A DNA stretch of 64,000 nucleotides from an uncultured Bacilli bacterium (GTDB lineage: Bacteria; Bacillota_I; Bacilli_A; RF39; UBA660), in assembly GCA_944372195.1 (NCBI GenBank), contig CALVYK010000001.1, positions 47,644-111,643 of the forward strand, given 5' to 3'. A model generated the notes under the pieces. That model was not told the DNA's origin, made no database searches, and saw only the letters and a list, made by a program, of their open reading frames with translations. Shown here piece by piece: positions 11,042-46,577 of this stretch (positions are counted from its first letter, which is position 1; each line of letters opens with the position of its first letter). Position numbers and translations under genes: made by a program.

Positions 11042-13525
11042 ATGAAAATATTAAATATTTTGACTATTAAACATTTAAAAGCAAATAAAAAAAGAACCAT
11101 TTTAACAATCATGGGAATCATGCTAGCCACTTTTTTAATGATTGAATTAGGGCTATTATTTTCTAGTTTTAGAGATAATGGAATTCGAACAACTATTAAA
11201 TATAATGGAGATTATCATGTTAATTTAAATGTGAAAAAAGAAGATTTAAATTTCATTTCTAAAAATGATAATGTTTTAGATTATAAATATAAGTCTAATT
11301 TAGGATATTCATTATATGAAGGATTACAAAATAAAAAATATCTACAAGTTTTAACAGCGTCTAAAAGTTATTTAGATGATTTAAAGTTAATTGAAGGAAG
11401 ATTACCAAATAATGAAAATGAAGTCATTATTTCAAATAATATTAAAACTGAAGGAAATGTTGATTTAAATGTTGGAGATACTATTAAATTAAATATTGGT
11501 CAAAGACAGTGTGATGGCAAATTATTAGGGGAAAGTGCTTATGTAGTTGAATATAAATATTTGAGTGATGGAACAGTAGAAATTGTAAAAGAAGAACATT
11601 TAATAAATACATCGCCAAAAGAATATAAAATTGTTGGTATCGTTGAAAAAGATATATATGAAGAATATTCTAATCCAGGATATAGTGTATTTACAATTTC
11701 AGAACCTATCGATTTATTAAATGTATATGTAAAATATAAAAATGTTTTTAAGACAATACAAAATAGTGATTCTATTATAAAAAATTTAAATTATGAAAGT
11801 GATTTAAAATATAATGATAGTTTACTTTATTATTATGGAATAGGAGAAAATAATAATTTTATTAAATTTTCAATTTCAATATTACTAATTATTTTAATAT
11901 TAATTACATTTGCAAGTGTTATTGTAATTTATAATGCTTTTGCTATATCAGTTACCGAACGAATAAAACAATTTGGTTTATTTTCAAGTATCGGCGCTAC
12001 TAAGAAACAATTAAGATATACAATATTTTTTGAAGTTTTTGTAGTAGGTACTATTGGTATTGTACTAGGATTAATTTTATCTTTTATTGGTATTAATATT
12101 ATTTTATCAATTATTAATAAATTATTAGTTAATAGTTTATCTATTCCATTAGAATTATCAATATATCCTTTATATATATTGATTTCTCTTATTTTTATTA
12201 TTTTAACTATTGCTTTAGCAGCTTATTATCCTTCTAAAAAAGCGAGTAGAGTAAGTCCTATTGAAGCAATTAGATTAAATAATGAAATTAAAATTAAAAA
12301 GTTCAGAACACCTAAATTAATTCAAAAATTAGGTATTGAAGCAGAGGTTGCTTACAAAAATATGAAAAGAAATAAGAAAAAATATAATATAACTATTTTA
12401 TCATTATTTTTAAGTATTGTTTTATATGTTTCATTTAGTTCGTTTTTAAACTATACAATTGAATCTAGTAAAGATGCTATGGATATTCCAAGTTATGATT
12501 ATTTTGTTAGATTATCTGGTAAAGATAAAAATAAAATAGATGAAATCATTAATCAAGTTTTAAATGTTGAGGGAGTAAAGCAGAATAGTTTAATTGAATT
12601 AAAAACATTAGAATCTGATTTTAATCTAGATTATTATACTGATGAAGTAATAAACGAATTTGGAATAAGTAGTAGTCCTAAACAATATGTTCATTTATAT
12701 ATGTTAGATGATAAAACATATGAACAAGTTAAAAAACAACTTAATATTAAAGATAGACCAATTTTGTTAAATTATTTAGATGAAGAGGGATGGATAAATA
12801 AAGATATCAAAGGCTTTAATTTATATAAAGATATTAGTAGTTTAAATATATATGATAATAATAATAATTTTGTTTTAGATAATATTTATATGTCTGATAT
12901 TAAAATAGAAAATGTTGAACCTTGGATTTATACATATACTTTAATTGTTGATGAAGATACATTTAATAAAATTAAAACCGATGAATATAATATAACATTA
13001 ACTTTAAATGGCGATAATTTTACTAAAGTCGATGAATTATTACATCAAGATATTTTAGATGTTAGTATTAGTACTGATAATATTAAACAAACGATGCAGG
13101 AACAATACAATACTTTATTAGCATATAAAATAATATTATATGGTTTTGTTGTTTTGATAACTTTAATCGGTGTTACTAGTGTTATTAATACAATAAATAT
13201 GAGTGTTACTTTAAGAAGACAAGAATTTGCAATGTTAAGAAGTATCGGTTTAACACCTGAAGGATTTAATAAAATGATAATTTTTGAATGTTTATTATTT
13301 GGTTTGAAATCATTAATTTATGGAATATCGATATCATTAATTATAACTTATTTATTTCATTTAGCATTTAATAAAATGGCAAAAACTAGTTTAATAATAC
13401 CATATACAAGTATAATAATATCTGTATTTAGCATATTTATAATTGTTTTAATGACTATGTGGTACACTACTAAAAAAATAAAAAAAGAAAACATTTTAGA
13501 TATTATTAGAAAAGAAAGTATTTGA
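11042..13525 (+). CDS. ABC transporter permease, FtsX/MacB-BceB family, paralog 1
   Basis: 827 aa; N-terminal TM, two large extracytoplasmic domains and two FtsX 3-4 TM bundles. Confidence 0.85.
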   Translation: MKILNILTIKHLKANKKRTILTIMGIMLATFLMIELGLLFSSFRDNGIRTTIKYNGDYHVNLNVKKEDLNFISKNDNVLDYKYKSNLGYSLYEGLQNKKYLQVLTASKSYLDDLKLIEGRLPNNENEVIISNNIKTEGNVDLNVGDTIKLNIGQRQCDGKLLGESAYVVEYKYLSDGTVEIVKEEHLINTSPKEYKIVGIVEKDIYEEYSNPGYSVFTISEPIDLLNVYVKYKNVFKTIQNSDSIIKNLNYESDLKYNDSLLYYYGIGENNNFIKFSISILLIILILITFASVIVIYNAFAISVTERIKQFGLFSSIGATKKQLRYTIFFEVFVVGTIGIVLGLILSFIGINIILSIINKLLVNSLSIPLELSIYPLYILISLIFIILTIALAAYYPSKKASRVSPIEAIRLNNEIKIKKFRTPKLIQKLGIEAEVAYKNMKRNKKKYNITILSLFLSIVLYVSFSSFLNYTIESSKDAMDIPSYDYFVRLSGKDKNKIDEIINQVLNVEGVKQNSLIELKTLESDFNLDYYTDEVINEFGISSSPKQYVHLYMLDDKTYEQVKKQLNIKDRPILLNYLDEEGWINKDIKGFNLYKDISSLNIYDNNNNFVLDNIYMSDIKIENVEPWIYTYTLIVDEDTFNKIKTDEYNITLTLNGDNFTKVDELLHQDILDVSISTDNIKQTMQEQYNTLLAYKIILYGFVVLITLIGVTSVINTINMSVTLRRQEFAMLRSIGLTPEGFNKMIIFECLLFGLKSLIYGISISLIITYLFHLAFNKMAKTSLIIPYTSIIISVFSIFIIVLMTMWYTTKKIKKENILDIIRKESI

Positions 13526-14334: not shown

Positions 14335-16911
14335 ATGAAAATATTAAATAATTTAACAATTAAACACTTAAAAGCAAATAAAAAAAGAACTATAGTAACA
14401 ATTATAGGTATTATTTTATCAACTGCTTTAATGGTTGGAATTGGATTGTTATTTTCAACAGTAAGAGATAATTCAGTGAAAATGATCATTGAAAATAATG
14501 GTGATCATCACGTGGCAATTGAACTAGAAAAATCTAAATTAGATTTTATTGCTAAAAACGATAGTGTATTAAAATATAAATATAAATCTAGTTTAGGTTA
14601 TTCATTATATGAAGGTATTAATAATGAGTATAAACCTTATATTAAAGTATTAACAGCATCAGATGAATATTTAAATGATTTAAAACTGATAGAAGGAAGA
14701 TTACCTAATAACGAAAACGAAATAGTTATACCTGAACATTTAGAAACTAATGGCGAAGTAAAATTAAATATTGGTGATAAAATTGTTTTAAATATCGGCC
14801 AAAGAGTAGCTAATGATGGAACATTATTGGGCGACACTCCATATGTTTATGAATATTCTTGTGATGAAAATAATGTTTGTACAACAGATGTTAATAAATC
14901 AGATGAACATTTAATTAATACTGTAAAGAAAGAATATACAGTAGTAGGAATTATAGAAAGAGATATTCAAGAAGATTATCAAGATCCAGGATATAATGCT
15001 TTTACATTATCTGAACCTAGTGATTTATTAACTGTTTATGTTAATTATAAAAATATTAAAGATACATATAAAAATACCAAAATTATTGCTAAGAATTTAG
15101 GTAATGAAGAAGTATATGATAATTTATATTATGGTATAAGTTATAATGATAATTTACTGGCATTTTCTGGTGTATCTAATTATAGTAATATGATAGATTC
15201 TATGGCGTTTATTATAATTATAATTCTAGCTTTAGTTTCAATTGCTTGTATTATTGTTATATATAATTCATTTGCTATTTCGGTAATGGAAAGGAAAAAA
15301 CAATTTGGTTTATTTTCAAGTATCGGTGCTACTAAAAAACAATTAAAGCATACTGTATTTTTTGAAGCTTTTATAGTAGGTATTATTGGTATACCATTAG
15401 GTGTTTTATCAGCTTATTTAGGTATTGGAATAGTTTTAATGATCGTTAATAAATTATTACCTAATATGTTTGATTTCCCACTTGCCTTAGCGACATATCC
15501 ATTATTCATTATTATTCCAATAATATTTATGATAATAACAATATTAGTTTCAGCTTTCTTACCAGCTAGAAGTGCTAGTAAAGTAAGTCCTATTGAAGCT
15601 ATTAGATTAAATGATGATATAAAAATAAAATCAAAAAAATTAAAAACACCTAAAATAATTAAATTTTTTGGTGTTGAAGGTGAAATAGCTTATAAAAATA
15701 TGAAAAGAAATAAGAAAAAATATCGAATAACTATAATTTCATTATTTATAAGCATAGTATTATTTGTATCATTTAGTAGCTTATTAAAATATGGATTAAG
15801 AAGTGTTTATGATTATACTGAACTACCAGAATATGAATATACATTTAATATGAGTAGTGATAATAAAGAAAGTATAGATAATATAATTAATCAAGTCTTA
15901 AAAGTAGATGGTATTAGAAAATATAGTATAATTAGACCAATTTATTATTATGCTGATAAAAATGATGATTATTATACAAAAGAATTAAAAGATAGTTATG
16001 ATGAAAGTTCTTTTGAAAATGATGTTATAAATATAATGATTCTTACTTTAGATAATAAATCTTATGAACAATATAAAAAAGAAATCAAATTAAATTCAGA
16101 TTATCCAATTTTATTAAATATATTAAATAAAATAGATTATACAGATAATTCGAGAAAACAAATTAAAATAACACCTTACAATAAAATTACTTCTTTAGAA
16201 ATATTTAGTTATGATAAAAAAGTAAATCATAAATTAGAAAATATATTTATAACTGATATTTTACCATTTGGTGTTGATAATACTTATGTTAATACTATGA
16301 TGTTTGTAGTTAATGAAAGTATGTATAATGAATTAAAATATGATAATAATTATCAATTAGAAATGTGTTTAATAGCTGATAATTATGATGAATTTGATAA
16401 AATGTTAGATAGTGAAAGTAAAGAAAATATTTTAACAGATGATATAAGCATCTATACTATGAATATTAAAAAAGAAATGCAATTATTATCCAATATAGTA
16501 TTTGTTATTAAATTATTATTATATGGTTTTATTAGTTTAGTAACATTAATCGGTATTACTAGTGTAATAAATACTATTAATACTAGTATAGCTTTAAGAA
16601 AAAAAGAATTTGCCGTATTAAGAAGTATTGGACTTACTCCTCATGGATTTAATAAAATGATGTTATTTGAATGTTTATTCTTTGGACTTAAGTCATTATT
16701 ATATGGTTTACCTGTTTCATTTATAGTTATATATTTATTCCATTTATCATTTAATGGTATTGTAGCATTTGATAGTTTGTTAATACCATATGGAAGTATA
16801 TTAATAGCTATATTTGGAGTATTTATTATAGTTTTAATAAGTATGTGGTATGCTACTATAAGAATTAAAAAAGCCAATATTTTAGATGCAATAAGAGAAG
16901 AAAATATTTAA
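14335..16911 (+). CDS. ABC transporter permease, FtsX/MacB-BceB family, paralog 2
   Basis: 858 aa, about 50% identical to permease 1, same topology. Confidence 0.85.
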   Translation: MKILNNLTIKHLKANKKRTIVTIIGIILSTALMVGIGLLFSTVRDNSVKMIIENNGDHHVAIELEKSKLDFIAKNDSVLKYKYKSSLGYSLYEGINNEYKPYIKVLTASDEYLNDLKLIEGRLPNNENEIVIPEHLETNGEVKLNIGDKIVLNIGQRVANDGTLLGDTPYVYEYSCDENNVCTTDVNKSDEHLINTVKKEYTVVGIIERDIQEDYQDPGYNAFTLSEPSDLLTVYVNYKNIKDTYKNTKIIAKNLGNEEVYDNLYYGISYNDNLLAFSGVSNYSNMIDSMAFIIIIILALVSIACIIVIYNSFAISVMERKKQFGLFSSIGATKKQLKHTVFFEAFIVGIIGIPLGVLSAYLGIGIVLMIVNKLLPNMFDFPLALATYPLFIIIPIIFMIITILVSAFLPARSASKVSPIEAIRLNDDIKIKSKKLKTPKIIKFFGVEGEIAYKNMKRNKKKYRITIISLFISIVLFVSFSSLLKYGLRSVYDYTELPEYEYTFNMSSDNKESIDNIINQVLKVDGIRKYSIIRPIYYYADKNDDYYTKELKDSYDESSFENDVINIMILTLDNKSYEQYKKEIKLNSDYPILLNILNKIDYTDNSRKQIKITPYNKITSLEIFSYDKKVNHKLENIFITDILPFGVDNTYVNTMMFVVNESMYNELKYDNNYQLEMCLIADNYDEFDKMLDSESKENILTDDISIYTMNIKKEMQLLSNIVFVIKLLLYGFISLVTLIGITSVINTINTSIALRKKEFAVLRSIGLTPHGFNKMMLFECLFFGLKSLLYGLPVSFIVIYLFHLSFNGIVAFDSLLIPYGSILIAIFGVFIIVLISMWYATIRIKKANILDAIREENI

Positions 16912-23223: not shown

Positions 23224-23919
23224 ATGAAAAAAGTATTAATTATAATTGGCATAATAGTTGCCATAGCAGTAGTATTAATTACCACTTTAATTATAAAAGA
23301 TTTAAATCAAGAAGAAAAATTAAGACAAGAGTTAAATGAAATAGATAGTTTAATTAATTTTGATGAATTTGATTATGATGTAGTAAATGAAAGATTGGGA
23401 AAAACAATTAGTAGTGGTTATTATTTAGTTGTAGAAAAAGCTGCTAAAAAATATTTAAAAGATACAATTGATACAACATTAAATTATGTTAACATAGTTA
23501 CAAATGAAAAATTTTCTAATATTTTAACCATAGAAAATTATCAAGAAGATGGTCCTGATTTTATTAATACAAAATTATATATTAAAGACACAAAACAACA
23601 AATAGAAAACAATAAAACTGCAATATTAAAACAATTTGATAATGAAACTGTTTTATCATACGTTGAAAATAAAAATTTAGATTCATATTATATTGATTTT
23701 TATAAAAGTTTAGCTTTTTCAAGTGAAGCTGAAATTACTAAAAACAAGCAAGAAATAGAAGATAGTATAAATGATGTTATTAATACGTTAAACGTATATG
23801 ATGAAGTAATTGATTTTTTAATTGCTAATAAAAATGATTGGACAATAGATGGTGAATATATAGTTTTTTCTAACAATGAATTAAGTGATCAATATAATGA
23901 ATTGTTATTAAAATTATAA
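23224..23919 (+). CDS. membrane-anchored hypothetical protein (paralog of 19121..19846)
   Basis: N-terminal TM helix; similarity across the body. Confidence 0.5.
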   Translation: MKKVLIIIGIIVAIAVVLITTLIIKDLNQEEKLRQELNEIDSLINFDEFDYDVVNERLGKTISSGYYLVVEKAAKKYLKDTIDTTLNYVNIVTNEKFSNILTIENYQEDGPDFINTKLYIKDTKQQIENNKTAILKQFDNETVLSYVENKNLDSYYIDFYKSLAFSSEAEITKNKQEIEDSINDVINTLNVYDEVIDFLIANKNDWTIDGEYIVFSNNELSDQYNELLLKL

Positions 23920-23967
23920 TGAAAAATTAATTATATTATGCAATTTACTAAAAAGGAGTTGATATAG

Positions 23968-24813
23968 TTGAAAAAATCAAAGAAAAAAATACTAAATATA
24001 AAAAAGATAAATAATAAATTTGCAATTACTAATATAATGTGTTTTGTAATATTATGTATAGTATTTTCTTTGGCTGTATCTGGAATTAAAAAACTGGAAA
24101 TTAATGACGCTAAACTAAAATTATCAGATAAAGATGTTGGTAATGAAATAAATCAAGAAGAAGTGAATAACGATGACATAGACTTAGCGTTTGTGTATGT
24201 TGGTTCAAAAGAGACACCTCAAACACTTCCTGGTAAGGGTGCAGGCTATTATGTTCAAAATGTAAGTTGTAAAAATGGAACAGCAAAATGGAGTAATGAT
24301 TTATGGTCTTTAACTAATGTTAGCGTTGAAAATGGCAAACAAATGGCTTGTTTACTAACATTAGGGGATACCGCTACATATGATGATACAATTGATCAAA
24401 GCTTTTCAAATTTGAAACCAGAAAATATTGTTTCTGGAGTTCAAATTGGTGATATTATTGGAACGGGTGAGAGACAAAAAACACTAATAGCGGCAGTATA
24501 TGTAACTAGCGCTAATACTTATGGTGATTTTTATAATGGTTCTTATTATGTCAGGTATGTTAAAAATAATGAATGGAGTGGAGCGGTTTATAATACAACG
24601 GGAAGAACATTGATTGCTTCATCGTTTATAGCTTTTTCAGATTGTGGATTTAGAATTAACGGAGTTCAATATGTTGGCCTTCATGGAAGTGGTAATTTTT
24701 CTATAATTAGTGGAAATCTTGGAAATATTGCGTTGCAAAATGTTTCAGGAATTGCTAGTGCTATGGGTGATGGTGAAAATGGAATTATTTATATTTTTGG
24801 AGAGGTACGTTAG
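23968..24813 (+). CDS. membrane-anchored protein with a C-terminal about 210-aa cassette domain (TTG start)
   Basis: RBS AAAAGGAG; C-terminal 24181-24813 about 85% nt identical to 27161-27794. Confidence 0.6.
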   Translation: MKKSKKKILNIKKINNKFAITNIMCFVILCIVFSLAVSGIKKLEINDAKLKLSDKDVGNEINQEEVNNDDIDLAFVYVGSKETPQTLPGKGAGYYVQNVSCKNGTAKWSNDLWSLTNVSVENGKQMACLLTLGDTATYDDTIDQSFSNLKPENIVSGVQIGDIIGTGERQKTLIAAVYVTSANTYGDFYNGSYYVRYVKNNEWSGAVYNTTGRTLIASSFIAFSDCGFRINGVQYVGLHGSGNFSIISGNLGNIALQNVSGIASAMGDGENGIIYIFGEVR

Positions 24814-24956
24814 AATTACTAGGAATTTTAATCAAATAATTTTAAATAATAAATTAAAAAGATTATTTTTATTTAATAAAAAAACATGTTATTTATTTGT
24901 ATGATAAATATAAATAGTTATGTAAAAAATAATCATGAAATAGTTAAGGAGAGAGT

Positions 24957-27794
24957 ATGAAAAAAATCACTAACAAATTTATAAATAATACTATATATGC
25001 GCAAAAAGGGTTTACCCTAATAGAATTATTAGGCGTAATAATAATACTAGCAATAATAGCTTTAATAACATATCCAATAGTAGATAAATCAATTCAAAAA
25101 AGTAGAGAAAGTGCTTTGGAAAGAACAATCGAAAACATAGAAAAATCAGCCTATAATTATAGTGTTGAATATGATTTAGGTTATCCAAGAGAACAACAAA
25201 TATTAGAATTAAAAGAATTGGCTAACAAAGGATTTATAAGTGATAAAGAACATATCAATCCAGTAACCAATAATGAATTGGAGGGATGTGTGTTATATAG
25301 ATGGAATGAGGCAACTAGTCAATATTATTTTAAATATGCTGAACCATGCGTAAGAACAGAAATCGCACCAACAATGACATTAGTTTATGATAAAGAAAAT
25401 ATAAATGAAAATGACTGGCTAAATAAAAATATAATGGTAAATATAAATGGGACAGGCACAAAATATTATTATTGTATAGGAAATACAGAATGTGAGCCAA
25501 ACATAGAAGAAAATAAAACAAATGGAACAAAAATAATAATAAATGAAGGAACAAATGTATTGTGTGCCAAAGCAGAAAATGCATATGGCGAAAGTAAAGT
25601 AGTATGTACAGAGGAATTAAATTTAGATAAGACAGCGCCAAATATAGAAGGAATAGGGGATAAAACAGTTCAAAGGAATACGAATGTAGATTTAATAACA
25701 GGAGTAACATATAACGATGCATTATCAGGAATATCAGGCGAATTAATAATCGAGCCAACAATTGTAGATACATCAGTAACTGGAACAAAAGTAGTAAAAT
25801 ATAAAATAACAGATAAAGCAGGAAATACAAAAGAAGCAACAAGAAATATCATAGTGGATGCCCCAGCGCCAACAATAACATACAATTTAGTTGATAGCAG
25901 TTCTGTAAATAGTAATGGCTGGGCAAAGAGTAATTTCTTTGTAAGAGCAATAATCACAGATAATAGCGGAAGTGGAATCAATATTGCCAAAAGTTGTTCA
26001 AGTAATAGTTCAAGTGAATGTACGCCAAGCGCAAGCTTTACATCAATAACAAAAGACTTCTATATTCAAACTGAAGGAAATAATAGAATATGTATCGAAG
26101 TAACAGATAATAATAATAAAACATCAAAAGTATGTAGTAGTACCTACAAACTAGATAAGACATTACCAAATATAGCTGGAGTAGCTGATAAGACAGTACA
26201 AAGAAATACAACAGTAGACTTGAAAGCAGGAGTAACATATAGTGATGCATTATCAGGCATATCAGGAGATTTGATAATAGAACCTTCAAGTATAAGTACA
26301 TCAGTAACAGGAACAAAGACAGTAAAATATAAAGTAACAGATAAAGCGGGAAATACAAGAGAAGTTACAAGAAATATTATTGTCGATGCAGCCGCACCAA
26401 CAATAACATATAAATTAGTAGATAGTAGTTCAATAAATAGTAATGGCTGGGCAAAGAGTAATTTCTTTGTAAGGGCAACGATTACAGATAATAGTGGAAG
26501 TGGAATCAAGACTGCAAAAAGTTGTTCAAGTAATAGTTCGAGTGAATGTACGCCAAGTGCAACATTTACCGGAACAACCAAAGACTTCTATATAGAAGTA
26601 GAAGGAAATAATAGGTTATGTATCGAAGTAACCGATAATAATAATAAAACTTCAAAGCTTTGTAGTGATACCTATAAACTAGATAAGACAGCACCAACAG
26701 CCGGAACTGCAACATTTACAGGTACATTAGGAAGTAATAGTTGGTATACAAGTAATGTAACAGTAAATAAAGTAAATGGAAGCGATAGTTTATCAGGACA
26801 TTCAAGTACAACAAGTAATATAAGCAGTATAACATCAAATACAAGTGGAACAAAAGTAACAATAACAACAACAGATTTAGCCGGAAATAGTTCAACTAGA
26901 AATTATACAATAAAAGTTGATAAAAATAGTCCAACGATAACAGCAAAAAGTGGAACAGTAAGTATCACAGAGGGTGATAGCAATCCAACAAGTAATTACT
27001 TTACAGTAAGTTATGGAATAAGTGGCGGAAGTTTAAGTTGTAGTCCAACTAATACAAGTGGTTTGACATATGGAACAAGAACAGTTACATGTACAGCAAC
27101 TGGAGGTAATGGCAAAAAAGTTACTGCTACAAAACAAATTGAAGTCAATTACGGAGATATAAATTTATCATTTAAATACGTTGGCTCAAAAGCAACTCCA
27201 CAAACTCTTCCAGGAAAAGGAAATGGATACTATGTTCAAAATGTAAGCTGTGAAAATGGAACAGCAAAATGGAGTAATGATTTATGGTCTTTAACTAATG
27301 TTAGTGTTGAAAATGGTAAAATGATGTCATGCGTATTAACATTAGGCGATACTGCTACATATGATGATACAATTGATCAAACTTATTCAAATTTAAAACC
27401 TGAAAATATAGCTTCAGGAGTTCAAGTCGGTGATATTCTCGGAACTGTTGAAACACAAAAAACTTTAATTGCAATCATATATATAAATGGTTCAAAAACA
27501 TACGGCACTTTTTACAATGGTTCTTATTATGTGGCATCTAATAATATTGGACAATGGGGTGGTGCAGTTAGCAATCCAACCGGAAGAACATTAGTTGCTA
27601 CATCATTTATTTCTATGTCAGATTGTGGATTTAGAATTAATGGAGTTCAATATGTTGGCCTTTTTGGATTTGGTAATTTTACTGTAACTAGTGGCAAAAT
27701 AAACAATGTTATATTACAAAATGTTTCTGGTGTTACCAATTCTTTAGGCAATGGTGAAAATGGAACAATTTATATTTATGGGGAAGTACGCTAG
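24957..27794 (+). CDS. giant type-IV-pilin/pseudopilin-like modular protein with tandem Ig-like repeats
   Basis: Class III signal KGFTLIELLGVIIILAIIA; two 528-bp tandem repeats 25623-26150 and 26151-26678; C-terminal cassette. Confidence 0.75.
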   Translation: MKKITNKFINNTIYAQKGFTLIELLGVIIILAIIALITYPIVDKSIQKSRESALERTIENIEKSAYNYSVEYDLGYPREQQILELKELANKGFISDKEHINPVTNNELEGCVLYRWNEATSQYYFKYAEPCVRTEIAPTMTLVYDKENINENDWLNKNIMVNINGTGTKYYYCIGNTECEPNIEENKTNGTKIIINEGTNVLCAKAENAYGESKVVCTEELNLDKTAPNIEGIGDKTVQRNTNVDLITGVTYNDALSGISGELIIEPTIVDTSVTGTKVVKYKITDKAGNTKEATRNIIVDAPAPTITYNLVDSSSVNSNGWAKSNFFVRAIITDNSGSGINIAKSCSSNSSSECTPSASFTSITKDFYIQTEGNNRICIEVTDNNNKTSKVCSSTYKLDKTLPNIAGVADKTVQRNTTVDLKAGVTYSDALSGISGDLIIEPSSISTSVTGTKTVKYKVTDKAGNTREVTRNIIVDAAAPTITYKLVDSSSINSNGWAKSNFFVRATITDNSGSGIKTAKSCSSNSSSECTPSATFTGTTKDFYIEVEGNNRLCIEVTDNNNKTSKLCSDTYKLDKTAPTAGTATFTGTLGSNSWYTSNVTVNKVNGSDSLSGHSSTTSNISSITSNTSGTKVTITTTDLAGNSSTRNYTIKVDKNSPTITAKSGTVSITEGDSNPTSNYFTVSYGISGGSLSCSPTNTSGLTYGTRTVTCTATGGNGKKVTATKQIEVNYGDINLSFKYVGSKATPQTLPGKGNGYYVQNVSCENGTAKWSNDLWSLTNVSVENGKMMSCVLTLGDTATYDDTIDQTYSNLKPENIASGVQVGDILGTVETQKTLIAIIYINGSKTYGTFYNGSYYVASNNIGQWGGAVSNPTGRTLVATSFISMSDCGFRINGVQYVGLFGFGNFTVTSGKINNVILQNVSGVTNSLGNGENGTIYIYGEVR

Positions 27795-27892
27795 ATTTTA
27801 TACTAGGAAGAATATTTTAGTAAATATTTAAAAGTTTGATTATAGCAAATAATTGGTTAAAATATAAAAGAATACATATAAATACTTGACAA

Positions 27893-28040
27893 ACATATAA
27901 TAAATGGTATAATTATATACGAAATGAAGAAGGAAAGCGAGTATTCTCCACCTGATAGCACATTAGCTATGGGTTATAAGCCATTTATTTTGCGTTTATA
28001 AAAGGTGGATACTATATTTGTGTCTACTTTTTTATTGTTG
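27893..28040 (+). promoter_or_regulatory. infC-rpmI-rplT leader (putative L20-autoregulatory structure) with promoter TTGACA..TATAAT
   Basis: Promoter cTTGACAaacatataataaatggTATAAT; long-range helix TCCACCT...AGGTGGA. Confidence 0.45.
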
Positions 28041-28795: not shown

Positions 28796-29314
28796 ATGGC
28801 AAGAGTTAAAGGTGGAACTATTAGTCGTGCAAGACATAAAAAAGTAATGAAACAAGCTAAAGGTTACTTTGGTAGTAAACATAGATTATATCGTACAGCT
28901 AATGAACAAGTAATGCATTCTGGTAAATATGCTTACCGTGATAGAAAACAAAAGAAAAGGGATTTCCGTAAATTATGGATTACAAGAATTAATGCAGCTT
29001 GTAGACAAAATGATATTAGTTATTCTAAATTTATCAATGGTTTAGCTAAGGCAGAAATTGATATTAATCGTAAAATGTTAAGTGAAATAGCTATCGATAA
29101 TCCAGCTGCATTTACAGAATTAGTTAATACTGCTAAAAATGCTTTAGAAGGCAAAGTAGAAAAAACTACTAAAGCTGTAAAAAAAGAAACTAAAGAAGTT
29201 AAAAACGATTTATCTAGTAAGACAGTTGCTGAATTAAGAGAATTAGCTAAAGAAAAAAAAGTTGAGGGATATTCAACAATGAAAAAAGCTGAATTATTAG
29301 AAGCTTTAAAATAA
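28796..29314 (+). CDS. rplT: 50S ribosomal protein L20 with an about 55-aa C-terminal extension
   Basis: L20 core MARVKGG...; tail ...[30 protein letters not shown]. Confidence 0.88.
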
Positions 29315-37648: not shown

Positions 37649-38638
37649 GTGTTAATTTTAGCAAAAGCGGTACTAGCATTCATGATAGGGTTTATATTAT
37701 CAATTATATTTGGGGTAATTTTAATACCATTATTGAAAAAATTAAATATAAAACAAACGGTAAGTATATTTTTATCTAAACACAAGGACAAAGAAGGAAC
37801 ACCAACAATGGGAGGATTAATATTTATAATTCCAACTATTTTATCAGCTGTTATTTTGCTTTTAACTAATAAATTAGAAATGACTTATAATTTAGGTATT
37901 GTTTTATTTGTTTTTTTAGCTTATGGATTATTAGGATTTATCGATGATTATTTAATTATTAGAAGACATAATAATTTTGGCTTAACAGAATTACAAAAAC
38001 TAGTAGGTCAAATATTAATAGCAATTGTATTTTTTATTTTATTTAGAGCAGGTGGTAGAGAGCCGGTATTAGAAATATATACATTTAATTTAACTATACC
38101 TTTAGGTTGGTTTTATTGGGTATTAATTTTACTTATGTTAGTAGCTACTACTAATGCAGTTAACTTAACAGATGGTTTAGATGGTTTAGCTGGTGGTTTG
38201 TCAGCAATTGCCTTTTTAGCTTTTGGGATGATAGCTTGGGCATCACTTGGGATTGAAGGTAATGAAGATATTGGTGTATTTTGCTTCATATTAGTGGGAG
38301 CTTTAATAGCATTCTGTTTCTTTAATACATATCCTGCTAAAGTGTTTATGGGTGACACTGGATCTTTAGCATTAGGTGGTACATTAGCTGCTGTATCAAT
38401 TGTTTCAAGTCATGAATTAACTTTAATAGTTGTAGCCGGTGTATTTGTAGTTGAAACTTTAGTATGCATTATTCAACGAGTATCAGTAAGATTTACGGGT
38501 AAAAGAATATTTTTAATGACACCTTTACATCATCATTTTGAAAAACTAGGTTGGCAAGAATTAGATATAGTTAAAATGTTTTGGTTTTTTGGAATTGTTT
38601 TAGCTGCAATAGCAATATTATGGGGTGTTTGGATGTAA
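37649..38638 (+). CDS. mraY: phospho-N-acetylmuramoyl-pentapeptide transferase (GTG start)
   Basis: Ten-TM MraY motifs (NAVNLTDGLDGLA; HHHFE). Confidence 0.9.
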   Translation: MLILAKAVLAFMIGFILSIIFGVILIPLLKKLNIKQTVSIFLSKHKDKEGTPTMGGLIFIIPTILSAVILLLTNKLEMTYNLGIVLFVFLAYGLLGFIDDYLIIRRHNNFGLTELQKLVGQILIAIVFFILFRAGGREPVLEIYTFNLTIPLGWFYWVLILLMLVATTNAVNLTDGLDGLAGGLSAIAFLAFGMIAWASLGIEGNEDIGVFCFILVGALIAFCFFNTYPAKVFMGDTGSLALGGTLAAVSIVSSHELTLIVVAGVFVVETLVCIIQRVSVRFTGKRIFLMTPLHHHFEKLGWQELDIVKMFWFFGIVLAAIAILWGVWM

Positions 38639-38663
38639 AAACTGCTTAAAACAGTTTTTTTTA
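38637..38663 (+). terminator. intrinsic terminator after mraY
   Basis: AAACTG cttaaaa CAGTTT TTTTTT. Confidence 0.65.
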
Positions 38664-38716
38664 TTGCAATTAATTAAAAAAAATTGTATAATTAATTAAG
38701 AATAGGAGCTGTTAAA

Positions 38717-40402
38717 ATGAAAAATATAACCAAAAATTTACAAAAAGATGCTTTTACCTTAGCAGAATTGATAGGTGTTGTAATAATATTAGCAATAATA
38801 GCTTTATTAGCATTTCCGCCTATATTGAATGCAATTCGACAAACAAAAGGGAAAATAAGTGATGCAAGTAAAGAAATATTATATAATGCGACAGGGCTTT
38901 ATGTTAGTGATAACCTTGACTATTATCCTAAGTATAATGGGAATACTTATTGTGTAACTATAAATGAGTTGACTAAAGGTGAATATTTACCTACTAAAGT
39001 ATATGATTCAGTAACTGGTAATGAAATCTCACAAGATAGTATGATAGAAGTAAATGTTGATAATGGTATTTATAATTACAATTTAAATAATGAATGTGAA
39101 GAATATTACAAATATGGCCCATTGACAAAAGTTTTATTAGGACAATATAATGAATCAAATACAACTGGATTAGTAAAAGATAGCTCAAACGAAAATTTAT
39201 ATTATTATACTGGGACAAATGAACAAGTAGCTAATAATTATTTATGGTATGGCGGCCATCAATGGCGAGTATTAGAGTTTAATATAGATGAAAATACTTT
39301 AACTTTAATAACACAACAGCCATTAACAGCAATCCAACCCGCTAGTTCTGCTTGGGAAACCAAAGAAGCATATGAATCAAGCTATATCAATACATGGTTA
39401 AATGATTACTTTTGGAATAGTTTAGATAGTAGCATACAAAATAATATATTAGATAGTATATTTAATGTTGGAATATATACTGATGTCGATGAGATAATGG
39501 CAATTAATAAAGTAGGACTATTAGATGAGGAACAATATAAAAGAGCAGGAAATACAGATTCATTTTTAGATATAAAAGATCATTTTTGGTTAGGTAATAG
39601 ATATGTTTCGTCTTACGTTCGCTGCGTCTACAACGATGGTCGCCTCTTCCGCACTTCCGTTTCGTCTGCGTTTGGCGTGCGTGCAGTTATAAAAATTTCT
39701 GATATAACCATCACTGAAGGGGATGGTACTCTTACAAGCAATTATCAAGTAGCAAATAAAGCAACAGATACTAATAATGTACAAGTAGGAGAATATATCA
39801 ATGTGCCATATAGTGGAAGTGACAGTGCTTGTGGAAGTGATAATATGTGCACATTTAGAGTAGTAAGTAAAGATAGTGATAGTATTAAAGTAGTACTAAA
39901 TGGATTACTTCCAACAGCAAGTGCATATGGAAGTTCAACAACAATAAGTACGAGTCATACAATATATACCCCACTGAATACATTTGTTGAAGGAATAAGT
40001 GACACATATCGATATACCGGAAATAAAATATTCTATATAGGAGATTATCCATCTGGTTCAAATTATAAAGATGTACAAAATGAAATATTGGGAGCAAGTG
40101 TGGGATTACCAACAGTAGGAGAAATGTTTAGTGGCAATGACATTGATTTAAGTACATCAAGTACCAAAACATTTGTTGATATAAATACAATCGAAAATCC
40201 AACTGTATCAAATTACTATTGGACAATGAATGGATATAGTTCGTCTCTCGTTCGCAGCGTCCACAGCAATGGCCACCTCAGCGACAATAGTCCTTCGGTT
40301 GCGTTCGGCGTGCGTGCAGTTATATATTTGAAGTCAGGGACTTCAGCCATAACCTTCACAGGGGGAGATGGAAAAGCTCAAAAGCCTTATACTTTAGATT
40401 AA
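38717..40402 (+). CDS. pilin-like (prepilin N-terminal) secreted protein with two GC-rich SVRCV/GVRAVI (DUF1566-like) repeats, inserted in the dcw cluster
   Basis: N-terminus AFTLAELIGVVIILAIIALLAFPP; own promoter TTGCAA...TGTATAAT; repeats at 39601-39682 and 40241-40323. Confidence 0.7.
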   Translation: MKNITKNLQKDAFTLAELIGVVIILAIIALLAFPPILNAIRQTKGKISDASKEILYNATGLYVSDNLDYYPKYNGNTYCVTINELTKGEYLPTKVYDSVTGNEISQDSMIEVNVDNGIYNYNLNNECEEYYKYGPLTKVLLGQYNESNTTGLVKDSSNENLYYYTGTNEQVANNYLWYGGHQWRVLEFNIDENTLTLITQQPLTAIQPASSAWETKEAYESSYINTWLNDYFWNSLDSSIQNNILDSIFNVGIYTDVDEIMAINKVGLLDEEQYKRAGNTDSFLDIKDHFWLGNRYVSSYVRCVYNDGRLFRTSVSSAFGVRAVIKISDITITEGDGTLTSNYQVANKATDTNNVQVGEYINVPYSGSDSACGSDNMCTFRVVSKDSDSIKVVLNGLLPTASAYGSSTTISTSHTIYTPLNTFVEGISDTYRYTGNKIFYIGDYPSGSNYKDVQNEILGASVGLPTVGEMFSGNDIDLSTSSTKTFVDINTIENPTVSNYYWTMNGYSSSLVRSVHSNGHLSDNSPSVAFGVRAVIYLKSGTSAITFTGGDGKAQKPYTLD

Positions 40403-40504: not shown

Positions 40505-41587
40505 ATGAAAGTTATTGTAAGTGCAGGTGGAACAGGTGGGCACATTTATCCTGCTTTAGCTATCATAAATAAAATAAAAGAAAGAGAACCTAATAGTGAG
40601 TTTTTATATATAGGTACTCACAATAGAATGGAAAAAGATATAATACCAAAATATAACATTCCTTTTAAACAAATTGAAATATATGGATTTAATAGGAAAC
40701 GTTTATTAAAAAATATAAAGACAGTTAAATGCTTAATAAAGGCAAATAAAGAGTGCAAAAAAATAATTAAATCTTTTAATCCTGATATAGTAATTGGTTT
40801 TGGAGGATATGTTACAGCGCCAGTTATTAAGATGGCTAAAAAGTTAGGATATAAAACATTTATTCATGAACAAAATAGTATTCCAGGTAAAGCTAATTTA
40901 TATTTAAGTAACTACGCCGATTTAATAGGTGTTTCATTTAAATCAAGTAAGGAATATTTTCCAAAAGATAAAACTATTCTAACAGGCAATCCTTGTGGGG
41001 AAGATGCCAAAAATGTGAAAGCTTGTGACAAAAAAGAATTTAATTTAAGCGAAAATAAAAAGTTGGTTTTATTTGTTATGGGATCATTAGGGGCTTCAAC
41101 TGTAAACGATTTTTTAATAAAAACAATGTCTTTATTTAATAACAAAGATTACGAAATATTGTTTGTTACTGGTAAAAATGATTATGAAAAAATAAAACAA
41201 ATTAATTTTCCAAGAAATATAAAAGTGGTTCCTTATATTGATAATATGAAACGAGTGATGAAAAAAACTGATGTTATGGTTACAAGAGCAGGAGCTAGTA
41301 CATTAAGTGAAATAATTTCTTTACAAATACCAAGCATAATTATTCCAAGTCCATTTGTACCTAATAATCATCAGTATAAAAATGCTTTAGATTTAGTAAA
41401 TAATGATGCTGCTATTATGATTGAAGAAAAGAATTTAAAGGGTGATATAATCGTTAGAACTATTGATAATTTAATAAATGATGAAAATAAACTATTAAAA
41501 ATGAAACATAATTTAGAAAAGTTACAAGTTAACAATAGTGCAACTATAATATATGAGAATTTAAAGAAAATAATAGATAGGAAGTAA
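40505..41587 (+). CDS. murG: UDP-GlcNAc:lipid I GlcNAc transferase
   Basis: N-terminus SAGGTGGHIYPALA. Confidence 0.9.
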   Translation: MKVIVSAGGTGGHIYPALAIINKIKEREPNSEFLYIGTHNRMEKDIIPKYNIPFKQIEIYGFNRKRLLKNIKTVKCLIKANKECKKIIKSFNPDIVIGFGGYVTAPVIKMAKKLGYKTFIHEQNSIPGKANLYLSNYADLIGVSFKSSKEYFPKDKTILTGNPCGEDAKNVKACDKKEFNLSENKKLVLFVMGSLGASTVNDFLIKTMSLFNNKDYEILFVTGKNDYEKIKQINFPRNIKVVPYIDNMKRVMKKTDVMVTRAGASTLSEIISLQIPSIIIPSPFVPNNHQYKNALDLVNNDAAIMIEEKNLKGDIIVRTIDNLINDENKLLKMKHNLEKLQVNNSATIIYENLKKIIDRK

Positions 41588-45681: not shown

Positions 45682-46470
45682 ATGTATGCTGCAGTTAAAA
45701 AACAATTCTTAATAGCTATTTTAGAGCCAATATTAGATAAAAAAATTGAAGATTTAGAACTGTTAAATCCAAATTTAGTTCAAGATTATTTTAGATTAAG
45801 AGGGCAAAGATTAGATTTGTTAGTAAAAACAAAAGATGAGGTAATTAATGTTGAATTGAATACTAATTATAGTGAAGAAATAAAAATAAGAAATTTACAT
45901 TACATTTTTAAGTTAGCAAGCCTTAATACAGAAAGAGGGAATAAATACAAAGTAGGTTATTCGATAATTCAAGTAAATCTAAATTTTTATAATAGTAAAT
46001 ACGAAAAAAGTATCTACACATTATATGATAAAATAAATAAAATAGAATTAACCGATTATATAAAAATATATAATGTAGGTATAGACAAATACATAAAAAA
46101 CTATTATAATAATGATAAGAAGTTTACTAAAGGTGAAGAAGCATTAATCATGCTAGATTTGGGTAAACAAGGTTTAGAAGAATTATCAGAAAAGAGTGAT
46201 ATAGTGAATAATTTTAAAGAAGAAGTAATAAAAGCTAACAATGATGAGTTTATAGTAGATTGGATAAGTCGTGAAGAGGAGCAAAAGCAATATGAAGAAG
46301 TAATGTATGAAAAAGGACTTAATCAAGGATTATCTGAAGGAAAACAAGAAGGAATTGAACAGACTAAAATTGATGTGGCAAAAGAAATGTTAGAATTAAA
46401 TATGGATTTAGAAACAATAAGTAAAGTAACTAAATTAGCTAAAGAACAAATTGAAAGTTTAAAAAATTAA
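45682..46470 (+). CDS. Rpn/YhgA-like PD-(D/E)XK recombination-promoting nuclease / putative transposase family protein
   Basis: RLDLLVK...INVELN core and the charged C-terminal repeat region typical of Rpn-family proteins. Confidence 0.55.
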   Translation: MYAAVKKQFLIAILEPILDKKIEDLELLNPNLVQDYFRLRGQRLDLLVKTKDEVINVELNTNYSEEIKIRNLHYIFKLASLNTERGNKYKVGYSIIQVNLNFYNSKYEKSIYTLYDKINKIELTDYIKIYNVGIDKYIKNYYNNDKKFTKGEEALIMLDLGKQGLEELSEKSDIVNNFKEEVIKANNDEFIVDWISREEEQKQYEEVMYEKGLNQGLSEGKQEGIEQTKIDVAKEMLELNMDLETISKVTKLAKEQIESLKN

Positions 46471-46505
46471 CAAAAAATTAAAAAAACAAAAAAATTTCAT
46501 TTTAT

Positions 46506-46573
46506 TGCAATTTTTTTTATTTTCTTGCAGGAATTCGATATAGCCTTGGCTAATATAACTAGTAGGGAGGTAA
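46506..46573 (+). repeat. 65-bp direct repeat B (native leader of the bacteriocin ABC transporter)
   Basis: TGCAATTTTTTTTattttCTTGCAGGAA...GGGAGGTA immediately before GTG 46578. Confidence 0.6.
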
Positions 46574-46577
46574 AAAA

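What the first reader, a model, noticed from the sequence alone, without database searches (positions are those of the whole stretch)
23968..27794. Giant pilin-like adhesin with 528-bp tandem repeats, sharing a 630-bp C-terminal cassette with the adjacent gene
The 945-aa protein starts with a canonical type IV pilin leader (KGFTLIELL). It contains two tandem repeats of exactly 528 bp (25623-26150 and 26151-26678, about 80% identical, with a partial third copy), each encoding 176-aa Ig-like modules.

Its last 210 aa (27161-27794) are about 85% nt identical to the C-terminus of the upstream membrane-anchored gene (24181-24813). Long direct repeats in adjacent same-strand genes allow deletion or duplication, or cassette exchange, that could vary the displayed domain. 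The intervening ORF 24710-24904 is probably not real.
Basis: seen in the sequence. Interest (0 to 1): 0.6.

Follow-up and report, generated by a model that had tools for sequence, protein, structure and literature searches.

The report
Giant modular pilin with swappable tip
A 945-residue pilus-subunit-like protein of an uncultured low-GC gut-type bacterium carries a long stalk of Ig-like domains ending in a rare two-part tip domain. The small membrane-anchored protein encoded next to it carries the same tip, and related genomes show that such tips and stalk repeats have been exchanged and gained or lost over evolutionary time, not switched in this genome.

Summary
BIG (24957-27794) has a prepilin leader. 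It holds two in-frame 528-bp tandem repeats that are 83.5% identical. It also holds a ~640-nt 3' cassette that is 78% identical to the 3' end of SMALL (23968-24813).

BIG is a modular type IV pilin. Its parts are a pilin module, seven Ig-like domains and a two-part tail (casA + casB) with no known family. It belongs to a multi-copy family in uncultured low-GC Bacilli.

The family's conserved carrier ends at one sharp junction (aa ~732). Beyond it, unrelated tail classes follow:
- A relative is 92% nt identical to BIG up to exactly that junction and then carries another tail.
- Close homologues have 0, 2, 3 or 4 stalk repeats.
- A syntenic locus lacks both SMALL and the repeats.
- Three casA-casB tail types each occur on both a pilin and a SMALL-type carrier, and casA clusters by tail type, not by carrier.

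Cassette exchange and repeat gain or loss therefore hold on an evolutionary timescale. In this genome the copies are old (dS 0.6-0.8) and under purifying selection (omega ~0.2). SMALL is an intact gene, not a silent cassette, so an active switch is not supported. The adhesin function is inferred. I rate this a new variant of a known kind, of moderate interest.

The parts
23968..24813 (+). SMALL: 281-aa protein with a Lys-rich N-terminus, one hydrophobic anchor, a linker and then the casA+casB tail
   Evidence: ORF. The gene caller's product P0001/P0131 has the same length. No Pfam or NCBIfam hit, not even a prepilin hit at E<=10. Omega is 0.22 against the BIG tail.
24019..24087 (+). SMALL hydrophobic segment FAITNIMCFVILCIVFSLAVSGI, a predicted signal anchor; cleavage as a signal peptide is not excluded
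   Evidence: Read from the sequence. It is homologous to the 'KGFA(I/V)SGIIYS...' N-termini of P0002 and P0139 but lacks Gly-1 and Glu+5.
24172..24471 (+). casA copy in SMALL (aa 69-168)
   Evidence: 84% aa and 82% nt identical to BIG casA; dN 0.09, dS 0.92.
24472..24810 (+). casB copy in SMALL (aa 169-281)
   Evidence: 64% aa and 74% nt identical to BIG casB; dN 0.24, dS 0.65.
24814..24956 (+). AT-rich spacer with the BIG ribosome-binding site (AAGGAGAG). The first ~35 nt still resemble the sequence after the BIG stop codon. No terminator-like hairpin was found.
24710..24904 (+). 64-aa GTG ORF, probably spurious
   Evidence: It overlaps the end of SMALL in another frame and runs into the spacer. 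No support was found for it.
24957..27794 (+). BIG: 945-aa modular type IV pilin
   Evidence: P0004 is the identical protein in the public collection.
24957..25010 (+). 18-aa prepilin leader ending in Gly18, followed by F19-T-L-I-E23
   Evidence: PF07963 and TIGR02532 above their cut-offs; positions.
25011..25361 (+). Pilin module (aa 19-135): hydrophobic alpha-1N plus a globular head with Cys111 and Cys131
   Evidence: Weak ComGC and GspG matches over aa 16-97. PDB pilin matches over aa 13-79. Cysteine positions. Conserved in 112 of 122 collected proteins.
25362..25622 (+). Stalk domain Y0 (aa 136-222, four Cys)
   Evidence: Related to the second half of each repeat.
25623..26150 (+). Tandem repeat 1: X1 (PF16403 Ig-like) plus Y1 (four-Cys domain)
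26151..26678 (+). Tandem repeat 2: X2 plus Y2
   Evidence: dS against repeat 1 is 0.61 and omega is 0.17.
26679..27152 (+). Last two stalk domains, X3 (aa 575-654) and Z (aa 655-732). They are conserved in 120 of 122 collected proteins and end at the carrier/tail junction.
27153..27452 (+). casA in BIG (aa 733-832): small five-stranded beta domain with a conserved Cys765-Cys792 pair
   Evidence: AF2 gives pLDDT 75-95 for tail residues 1-70. Invariant C35 and C62 in alignment A5.
27453..27791 (+). casB in BIG (aa 833-945): terminal domain of unknown fold, the part that differs between strains

Best explanation
BIG is a modular type IV pilin. An N-terminal pilin module lets it be processed by a prepilin peptidase and inserted into a type IV (Com-like) filament, probably as a low-abundance or tip subunit. 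The assembly machinery is encoded elsewhere in the genome.

Fused to the pilin module is a stalk of about 600 aa made of seven Ig-like domains (Y-[X-Y]x2-X-Z). The stalk projects a two-part terminal module: casA, a conserved small disulphide-containing beta domain, and casB, a variable end domain. This module is most likely the ligand-binding (adhesive) part.

SMALL displays a diverged copy of the same casA-casB module directly on the membrane through a plain N-terminal anchor. The cell therefore shows one binding specificity at two distances.

The locus is a product of module shuffling. In this family the carrier and the tail are separate evolutionary units joined at one domain boundary (aa ~732). 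Tails move between pilin carriers and SMALL-type carriers. Whole 528-bp X-Y units are gained or lost in register, which changes stalk length.

Shown: the anatomy, family membership, the junction, the exchange events and the selection regime. Inferred: filament incorporation, tip location, adhesion, and the division of labour between SMALL and BIG.
For: Pilin identity:
- PF07963 and TIGR02532 score above their cut-offs, and ComGC, GspG and PDB pilins match over aa 13-97.
- In a related metagenomic contig, a gene whose carrier part is 92% nt identical to BIG's (about 91-100% aa) sits next to a T2SSE/PilB-type ATPase and two small GF(T/I)xxE pilins.

Stalk:
- PF16403 matches the first half of each repeat. 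Internal similarities are X1/X2/X3 and Y0/Y1/Y2, and each Y domain has four conserved Cys.

Family and junction:
- 374 homologues were found.
- The constant region is present in 120 of 122 collected proteins, then discrete unrelated tail classes start at the same position.
- There are about 10 loci in one MAG.

Exchange:
- L061 is 92% nt identical to BIG from 18 nt before the ATG to nt 27148, the junction. Its flanks are unrelated, and its tail is 72% identical to that of the window's second pilin.
- L058 against the L001 BIG gene is 96-98% identical for most of the first ~840 nt, then 82-88%, then has an unrelated casB.
- casA identity clusters by tail type: window BIG-SMALL 0.86, L001 pair 0.99, P0123-P0139 0.74, against 0.59-0.72 between the three tail types.

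Gain and loss:
- The syntenic locus L060 (housekeeping genes 86-89% nt identical) has BIG without SMALL and without the repeats.
- The homologues carry repeat units A-D, A-B-C or A-B-C-D.

Both tail copies are functional:
- Omega is 0.10-0.37.

Ligand-binding tails in the family:
- Other tail classes are DUF6273, an ALK/LTK glycine-rich domain, or weakly FGE-sulfatase-like.
- DUF6273 is described as a C-type-lectin-like domain of putative phage receptor-binding proteins (PMC10743442).
- Modular pilins with adhesive modules are established (PMC8179133).
Against: - No type IV pilus machinery lies in the 64-kb window. BIG sits between housekeeping genes.
- The casA-casB tail has no Pfam, NCBIfam or PDB sequence match. 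casB could not be modelled (pLDDT <50), and Foldseek against the PDB found nothing. A binding function is therefore only argued by analogy.
- The SMALL-BIG pairing in one locus was seen only here and in L001.
- L001 is a 2.9x-coverage short-read contig with a 1,208-nt exact repeat and may be partly misassembled.
- SMALL-type genes also occur alone.
- A 945-aa subunit may be too bulky to polymerise.
Confidence: 0.6

Rival explanations
1. BIG is a membrane-anchored fibrillar adhesin, not a filament subunit. The prepilin-type N-terminus serves only as a membrane anchor. BIG and SMALL are then the long and short versions of one surface adhesin, and stalk repeats set the display height in the manner of Periscope proteins.
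For: - There is no pilus machinery in the window.
- The stalk-plus-tip architecture with variable repeat number matches fibrillar adhesins and Periscope proteins.
- The same tails occur on plain signal-anchored carriers.
Against: - The full class III signal (Gly-1, Phe+1, Glu+5) and the pilin head with a Cys pair are conserved across hundreds of homologues. A plain anchor would not need them.
- A near-identical carrier sits beside an assembly ATPase and minor pilins.
Confidence: 0.2
2. The locus is an active variation system. SMALL acts as a donor or partner cassette, and recombination between the direct repeats (cassette copies 2,981 nt apart, tandem units 528 nt apart) frequently switches or deletes the displayed domain or changes stalk length within a population.
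For: - Direct repeats lie in same-strand neighbouring genes, with identical runs of 52, 28, 40 and 23 nt.
- In L001 the two tails are 96-100% identical, as expected after recent conversion or duplication.
- Repeat number and tail identity vary among close homologues.
Against: - In this genome the copies are 16-22% diverged, with dS of 0.6-0.8, similar to or above the between-species dS of flanking genes (0.41-0.73). They are under purifying selection.
- The longest identical run is conserved in all orthologues, so it does not mark a conversion tract.
- SMALL is an intact, anchored protein, unlike silent pilS-type cassettes.
- A second sample carries the same SMALL region at 99.3% identity with the same arrangement over 1,164 nt.
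- A crossover between the cassettes would delete the whole pilin carrier rather than vary it.
Confidence: 0.1
3. BIG is a polymorphic toxin or effector delivered by a pilus-type system. The variable C-terminus is the toxic or effector domain, and SMALL is a related orphan or protective module.
For: - The architecture of a conserved N-terminal part, a sharp junction and a polymorphic C-terminus resembles polymorphic toxins.
- Some family members carry PT-HINT or Hint domains.
Against: - No toxin family matches the window tail or the main tail classes.
- The HINT-bearing members have little or nothing after the HINT domain, and no toxin domain was detected there.
- The gene downstream of BIG is infC, not an immunity candidate.
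- SMALL carries the same domain rather than a distinct binding partner.
- The recognisable tail classes are lectin-like or binding folds.
Confidence: 0.05

Closest known systems
Modular type IV pilins, such as Streptococcus sanguinis PilB (vWA module) and PilC (lectin module), and CofB of ETEC (Raynaud et al. 2021, PMC8179133)
   Same: [quoted passage not shown] These are widespread in monoderms, and binding is the usual role of the added module.
   Different: - BIG has a seven-domain Ig-like stalk between the pilin module and the functional module.
- BIG (945 aa) and its homologues (up to 1,509 aa) exceed the 860-aa extreme cited in that survey.
- The family is multi-copy per genome, and interchangeable tails join at a fixed junction.
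- The same tail is also carried by a non-pilin membrane protein encoded next door.
- The tail belongs to no described family.
Periscope proteins and fibrillar adhesins (SasG, Rib, Sgo_0707, CdrA; Whelan et al. 2021, PMC8201768; Monzon et al., PMC8286594 and PMC9210967)
   Same: A stalk of tandem Ig-like domains encoded by long DNA repeats projects a terminal binding domain. Repeat number differs among relatives.
   Different: - The anchor is a prepilin N-terminus rather than an LPXTG or outer-membrane anchor, and the adhesive domain is C-terminal.
- The repeats are only 83.5% identical at DNA level and are old (dS 0.61). Periscope repeats are highly identical and change number between similar strains.
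- Variation within the species was not shown here.
Neisseria pilE/pilS antigenic variation
   Same: Pilin-related sequence is duplicated nearby in direct orientation. The C-terminal, exposed part is the part that varies.
   Different: pilS copies are silent, promoterless and lack the N-terminal coding part, and conversion is frequent. SMALL is an intact gene with its own anchor, under purifying selection and about 22% diverged from BIG.
Polymorphic toxin systems with orphan C-terminal cassettes (CDI, Rhs)
   Same: A conserved N-terminal carrier meets polymorphic C-termini at a sharp junction, and extra copies of the C-terminal module lie nearby.
   Different: There is no toxin domain and no immunity gene. 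The extra copy lies upstream and is a complete anchored protein.

Membership tests
Type IV pilin (class III signal peptide protein) | Short basic leader ending in Gly, then Phe/Met at +1, Glu at +5 and about 20 hydrophobic residues | tested here: met
   BIG reads MKKITNKFINNTIYAQKG|FTLIELLGVIIILAIIALITYP. PF07963 scores 29.2 bits (cut-off 21.2) and TIGR02532 26.9 bits (cut-off 16.3).
Type IV pilin (class III signal peptide protein) | Globular pilin head after alpha-1, often with a C-terminal disulphide loop | tested here: inconclusive
   Sub-threshold ComGC and GspG matches over aa 16-97. Cys111 and Cys131 are present. The head is conserved in 112 of 122 collected proteins. No structure was predicted for this part.
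Type IV pilin (class III signal peptide protein) | Processed by a prepilin peptidase and polymerised by a dedicated ATPase and platform machinery | not testable with these tools
   No such genes lie in the window. In the related contig L061, a T2SSE ATPase and two small pilins flank a gene whose carrier part is 92% nt identical to BIG's.
Modular pilin (sense of Raynaud et al. 2021) | An N-terminal pilin motif plus at least one extra domain not specific to pilus biology | tested here: met
   The prepilin motif is followed by PF16403 Ig-like domains and a C-terminal module. The definition is in PMC8179133.
Periscope protein | Long, highly identical tandem DNA repeats encoding stalk domains | tested here: inconclusive
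   Two 528-bp units encode two domains each, but they are only 83.5% identical, with dS 0.61.
Periscope protein | Repeat number varies between closely related strains | tested here: inconclusive
   Homologues with about 87-100% aa-identical N-terminal domains have 2, 3 or 4 units. The orthologue in a sister species has 0. These are paralogues or other species. No within-species comparison was possible.
pilE/pilS-type cassette variation | The donor copy is silent (no start, no N-terminal coding part) and there are recent conversion tracts | tested here: not met
   SMALL has an RBS, a start codon, an anchor and omega 0.22. dS between the copies is 0.76. The 52-nt identical run is conserved in all orthologues.
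Polymorphic toxin system | A C-terminal toxin domain and an adjacent immunity gene | tested here: not met
   No toxin family matches at E<=1. The downstream gene is infC.
Type IV pilin (applied to SMALL) | Class III signal peptide | tested here: not met
   SMALL, P0002 and P0139 get no NCBIfam prepilin (TIGR02532) hit even at E<=10, and SMALL gets no Pfam hit at E<=0.01. SMALL reads ...NNK|FAITN, with no Gly-1 and no Glu+5.

The most novel reading that the evidence does not exclude
The tails of SMALL and BIG are kept matched by selection because the two proteins work as a pair. One possibility is that the tails bind each other homotypically, giving self or kin recognition or pilus-to-cell docking between sister cells. 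Another is that they act in sequence: the pilus-borne tail captures a ligand at a distance and, after retraction, hands it to the membrane-borne copy.

The hint is that three different tail types each exist on both carrier types. In casA the window pair is much closer at non-synonymous sites (dN 0.09) than either copy is to the orthologue (dN 0.19-0.22), although dS is saturated (0.92).
Probability: 0.12. Interest if true: 0.7.

Novelty: new variant of a known kind. Interest (0 to 1): 0.42.

Why it matters
Uncultured, low-GC gut-type Bacilli are known almost only from metagenomes, so how they attach to hosts, food particles or other microbes is open.

This locus shows that they invest in many very large pilin-fusion proteins built like a kit: one conserved carrier, a length-adjustable Ig stalk and interchangeable end domains. 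The same end domains are also mounted on simple membrane anchors.

That widens the modular-pilin concept by combining it with stalk-length variation and tail shuffling at a fixed junction. It also gives a defined set of small, unannotated domains (casA and at least three casB types) to test as new binding modules.

It does not point to a new molecular mechanism, and no programmed switch is indicated.

Tried and rejected
1. Searching the 5.8-billion-protein collection with SMALL and with a cassette alignment gave only P0001, P0002 and P0123. It even missed BIG itself, so the word index under-reports and absence there is weak evidence.
2. The exhaustive profile search was diluted by pilin N-termini that entered the profile (352 positions). 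It still yielded P0139 and distant casA proteins.
3. The look-up of encoding contigs had no record for P0003, P0005 or P0006. The cluster members P0124 and P0137 worked instead.
4. Scans of the JGI metagenome and viral contigs with the cassette found nothing.
6. The weak PilY2 hit (E 0.77) and the FGE-sulfatase hit (E 0.079) are treated as noise or leads only.
7. A recent gene-conversion tract was rejected, because the 52-nt identical run is conserved across orthologues.
8. The polymorphic-toxin and pilS-like readings were rejected (see the membership tests).
9. A DGR link was considered because DUF6273 tails are DGR targets in phages, but no reverse transcriptase lies in the window.
Full report
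OBSERVATION

Two same-strand ORFs occupy the region. SMALL lies at 23968-24813 (281 aa, TTG start). BIG lies at 24957-27794 (945 aa).

BIG begins MKKITNKFINNTIYAQKG|FTLIELLGVIIILAIIALITYP. This matches the prepilin cleavage/methylation motif above the curated cut-offs: PF07963 at 29.2 bits against 21.2, and TIGR02532 at 26.9 against 16.3.

Direct-repeat search and pairwise alignment confirm a gap-free 528-nt tandem duplication at 25624-26150 and 26152-26678. It is 83.5% nt and 82% aa identical.

They also confirm a cassette at 24160-24846 that aligns to 27141-27832. It is 78% nt identical over 700 columns and 73% aa identical over 213 codons, and the similarity runs about 35 nt past both stop codons. 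Otherwise the description holds.

ANATOMY OF BIG

Internal BLAST and Pfam scans of the pieces give this layout:
- leader, aa 1-18
- pilin module, aa 19-135, with Cys111 and Cys131
- Y0, aa 136-222
- X1-Y1, aa 223-398
- X2-Y2, aa 399-574
- X3, aa 575-654
- Z, aa 655-732
- casA, aa 733-832
- casB, aa 833-945

X domains are PF16403-type Ig-like domains, at 27.0 and 29.7 bits against a cut-off of 27. Y domains have no Pfam match and carry four conserved cysteines each.

The '176-aa Ig-like module' is therefore a two-domain unit. The 'partial third copy' is the old X3 domain, which is 39.5% aa identical to the first half of a repeat.

ANATOMY OF SMALL

SMALL has a Lys-rich N-terminus, one hydrophobic segment (aa 18-40), a 28-aa linker and then casA-casB. 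Its similarity to BIG starts exactly where BIG's constant part ends.

SMALL and its relatives P0002 and P0139 give no NCBIfam prepilin hit even at E<=10, and SMALL has no Pfam hit at E<=0.01. P0002 and P0139 read 'NKGFA(I/V)SG', which is pilin-like but lacks Glu+5. The window protein has also lost the Gly. I treat SMALL as a signal-anchored surface protein. Cleavage by signal peptidase is not excluded.

CONTEXT AND ORGANISM

The window is 21-31% G+C in 2-kb windows, mostly 22-25%. It is made of housekeeping genes:
- upstream of the pair: aspS, a PAP2 gene, a cation-efflux gene, a DUF362 gene and a 231-aa membrane protein
- downstream: infC-rpmI-rplT, then Mur ligases and a dcw-type cluster

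It holds no pilus machinery and no reverse transcriptase.

Related loci carry record titles such as 'uncultured Bacilli bacterium', 'uncultured Tenericutes bacterium' and 'Acholeplasma sp. CAG:878'. From memory, not tested here, such genomes fall in the GTDB order RF39.

A second pilin-fusion gene (38717-40402, 561 aa, with a DUF6273 hit) sits between mraY and murG.

THE FAMILY AND ITS JUNCTION

BIG has 374 homologues at E<=1e-3, and P0004 is the identical protein. I split BIG into segments and searched the 122 proteins collected up to then: the 120 best BIG homologues plus the two SMALL-type proteins P0001 and P0002.
- Pilin head: found in 112.
- X3-Z region: found in 120.
- casA and casB: found only in P0004, P0009 and the SMALL-type proteins.

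Mapping the end of domain Z in each homologue shows that conservation stops at one position ('...TATGGNGK..T..K.I.V|'). After it come discrete, mutually unrelated tail classes:
- a ~380-aa 'SGANxPELLNNMIPIKY...' class, which is weakly FGE-sulfatase-like
- ~230-aa and ~425-aa DUF6273 classes
- repeat-rich classes
- an ALK/LTK glycine-rich class
- HINT-ending forms
- the rare window class

One MAG (E07__bin197) has about ten such loci. The same tails also occur on short pilins without a stalk, for example L028 43-1545.

DIRECT EVIDENCE OF MODULE EXCHANGE

(a) The L061 gene (P0124, 1,509 aa) is 92% nt identical to BIG from 18 nt upstream of the ATG to window nt 27148, which is the junction. Its flanks are unrelated. 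Its tail is 72% nt identical to the tail of the window's other pilin, at 39134-40150. That locus also encodes a T2SSE-type ATPase and two small GFxxxE pilins.

(b) L058 (P0009) and the BIG gene of L001 are 96-98% nt identical over most of the first ~840 nt, then 82-88%. Their casB parts are unrelated.

(c) casA is followed by at least three casB types, and each type occurs on both carrier types:
- window type: BIG and SMALL
- casB': L001 BIG and P0002
- casB'': the 321-aa pilin P0123 and the 251-aa SMALL-type P0139

casA identity groups by tail type (0.86, 0.99 and 0.74). Between tail types it is only 0.59-0.72, whichever carrier is compared.

More distant casA domains sit in signal-anchored proteins ahead of class-1 or DUF6273 tails.

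GAIN AND LOSS AT THE SAME LOCUS

Contig L060 is syntenic: PAP2, cation-efflux gene, DUF362, 231-aa gene, then BIG. Its housekeeping genes are 86-89% nt identical to the window's. There BIG is 594 aa with the window-type tail. It directly follows the 231-aa gene, with no SMALL and no X-Y repeats. Relative to L060, the window has extra segments at 23938-24938 and 25646-26679.

Homologues whose N-terminal domains are 87-91% (head) and 99-100% (Y0) aa identical to BIG's carry repeat units A-D (window and P0006), A-B-C (P0005) and A-B-C-D (P0003). These are in-register gains or losses of whole units.

L001 shows yet another arrangement: BIG, a truncated DUF362, a SMALL-type gene, a second truncated DUF362 and the 231-aa gene. 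It contains a 1,208-nt exact repeat. It is a 2.9x-coverage short-read contig, so I use it with caution.

AGE AND SELECTION

NG86 estimates:

| Comparison | dS | omega |
|---|---|---|
| Repeat 1 vs repeat 2 | 0.61 | 0.17 |
| BIG tail vs SMALL tail | 0.76 | 0.22 |
| casA only (dN 0.09) | 0.92 | 0.10 |
| casB only (dN 0.24) | 0.65 | 0.37 |
| Flanking genes, window vs L060 | 0.41-0.73 | 0.06-0.21 |

The duplicates are therefore about as old as, or older than, the species split. Both copies are kept by purifying selection.

The longest identical runs are 52 and 28 nt in the cassette and 40 and 23 nt in the tandem repeat. The 52-nt run encodes NGTAKWSNDLWSLTNV and is nearly invariant in all orthologues. 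It reflects constraint plus AT-biased codon use, not recent conversion.

A second sample holds the SMALL region at 99.3% identity over 1,164 nt with the same arrangement.

One unexplained detail remains. In casA the window pair is much closer at non-synonymous sites than either copy is to the L060 orthologue (dN 0.09 against 0.19-0.22), while dS is not lower. With only 100 codons this is suggestive at most.

THE TAIL

There is no Pfam, NCBIfam or PDB sequence match for the tail.

AF2 with a 14-sequence alignment models casA as a five-stranded beta domain with pLDDT 75-95 and an invariant Cys pair. casB stays below pLDDT 50. Foldseek against the PDB finds nothing below E 0.5. The cassette is absent from the JGI metagenome and viral collections.

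MECHANISM

Best reading (confidence 0.6): BIG is a modular type IV pilin. A type IV/Com-like filament presents a stalk-borne terminal binding module. SMALL presents a diverged copy of the same module at the membrane. The locus records carrier/tail shuffling and stalk-unit gain and loss.

Shown: the architecture, the family, the junction, the exchange events and the selection regime. Inferred: filament incorporation, tip position, adhesion and cooperation between SMALL and BIG.

Rivals:
- a membrane-anchored fibrillar adhesin that only borrows a pilin-type anchor (0.2)
- an active recombinational switch (0.1)
- a polymorphic toxin (0.05)

COMPARISON WITH KNOWN SYSTEMS

The closest known class is modular pilins (PMC8179133). 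Membership is met on the defining sequence features.

The stalk resembles Periscope proteins and fibrillar adhesins (PMC8201768). However, the repeats are less identical and older, and within-species length variation is untested.

pilE/pilS-type variation and polymorphic toxin systems each fail a defining feature.

DUF6273 tails in paralogues link the family to lectin-like receptor-binding folds (PMC10743442).

VERDICT

The feature is real. It is a new variant of a known kind: a giant, stalked modular pilin with a novel two-part tail, in a family with interchangeable tails that are shared with non-pilin anchors.

Interest is 0.42.

Noticed in passing
window 38717-40402 (+): A second modular pilin of 561 aa (leader ...KDA|FTLAELIG, with a DUF6273 hit at aa 206-251) sits inside the cell-wall/division cluster between mraY (37649-38638) and murG (40505-41587). 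Its tail is 72% nt identical to the tail of the L061 giant pilin, whose carrier is 92% identical to BIG.
   Followed up: partly
window 24001-28000 and 38001-40000: Both pilin-fusion genes lie in stretches of 29-31% G+C, against about 22-25% around them. This may reflect their Thr/Ser/Gly/Asn-rich composition or a different origin; I did not separate the two.
   Followed up: no
window 28796-29314 (+): The ribosomal protein L20 gene encodes 172 aa. A C-terminal extension matches the Rho N-terminal domain (PF07498, aa 138-171, E 1.4e-10), which is an unusual fusion.
   Followed up: no
window 27886-28032: A perfect sigma-70 consensus promoter (TTGACA-16-TATAAT with an upstream TG) at 27886-27913 is followed by a terminator-like hairpin at 28000-28032. 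The hairpin overlaps the listed GTG start of infC (28005). This could be the leader or attenuator of the infC-rpmI-rplT operon, and the true infC start may lie further downstream.
   Followed up: no
L001 1181-2388 and 2733-3940: A 1,208-nt exact duplication comprises the tail, a spacer and the C-terminal half of a DUF362 gene. Both DUF362 copies are truncated. This is either a real rearrangement of the locus or an artefact of a 2.9x-coverage short-read assembly.
   Followed up: partly
window 23224-23919 (+), L060 6221-6916, L001 3979-4674: A 231-aa membrane-anchored protein with no known family lies immediately upstream of the pilin locus in the window and in L060. In L001 it lies at the end of the rearranged locus. 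It is 84% aa identical to its L060 orthologue (omega 0.21). Its role is unknown.
   Followed up: no
window 11042-13525 and 14335-16911 (+): Two large paralogous FtsX/MacB-type permeases (827 and 858 aa) lie in tandem downstream of a two-component system and an ABC ATPase.
   Followed up: no
window 45682-48614 (+): A PD-(D/E)XK transposase-family gene is followed by a C39-peptidase ABC exporter (bacteriocin-type). Both lie directly after ftsZ.
   Followed up: no
P0053, P0059, P0072-P0074 (family members outside the window): Some giant pilins of this family end in a PT-HINT/Hint domain with little or nothing after it. This hints at autoprocessing or a split tail.
   Followed up: no
P0224 (265 aa, found): This protein has a multi-pass hydrophobic N-terminus fused to the casB' domain of L001. 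It is either a third kind of carrier or a chimeric gene call.
   Followed up: no
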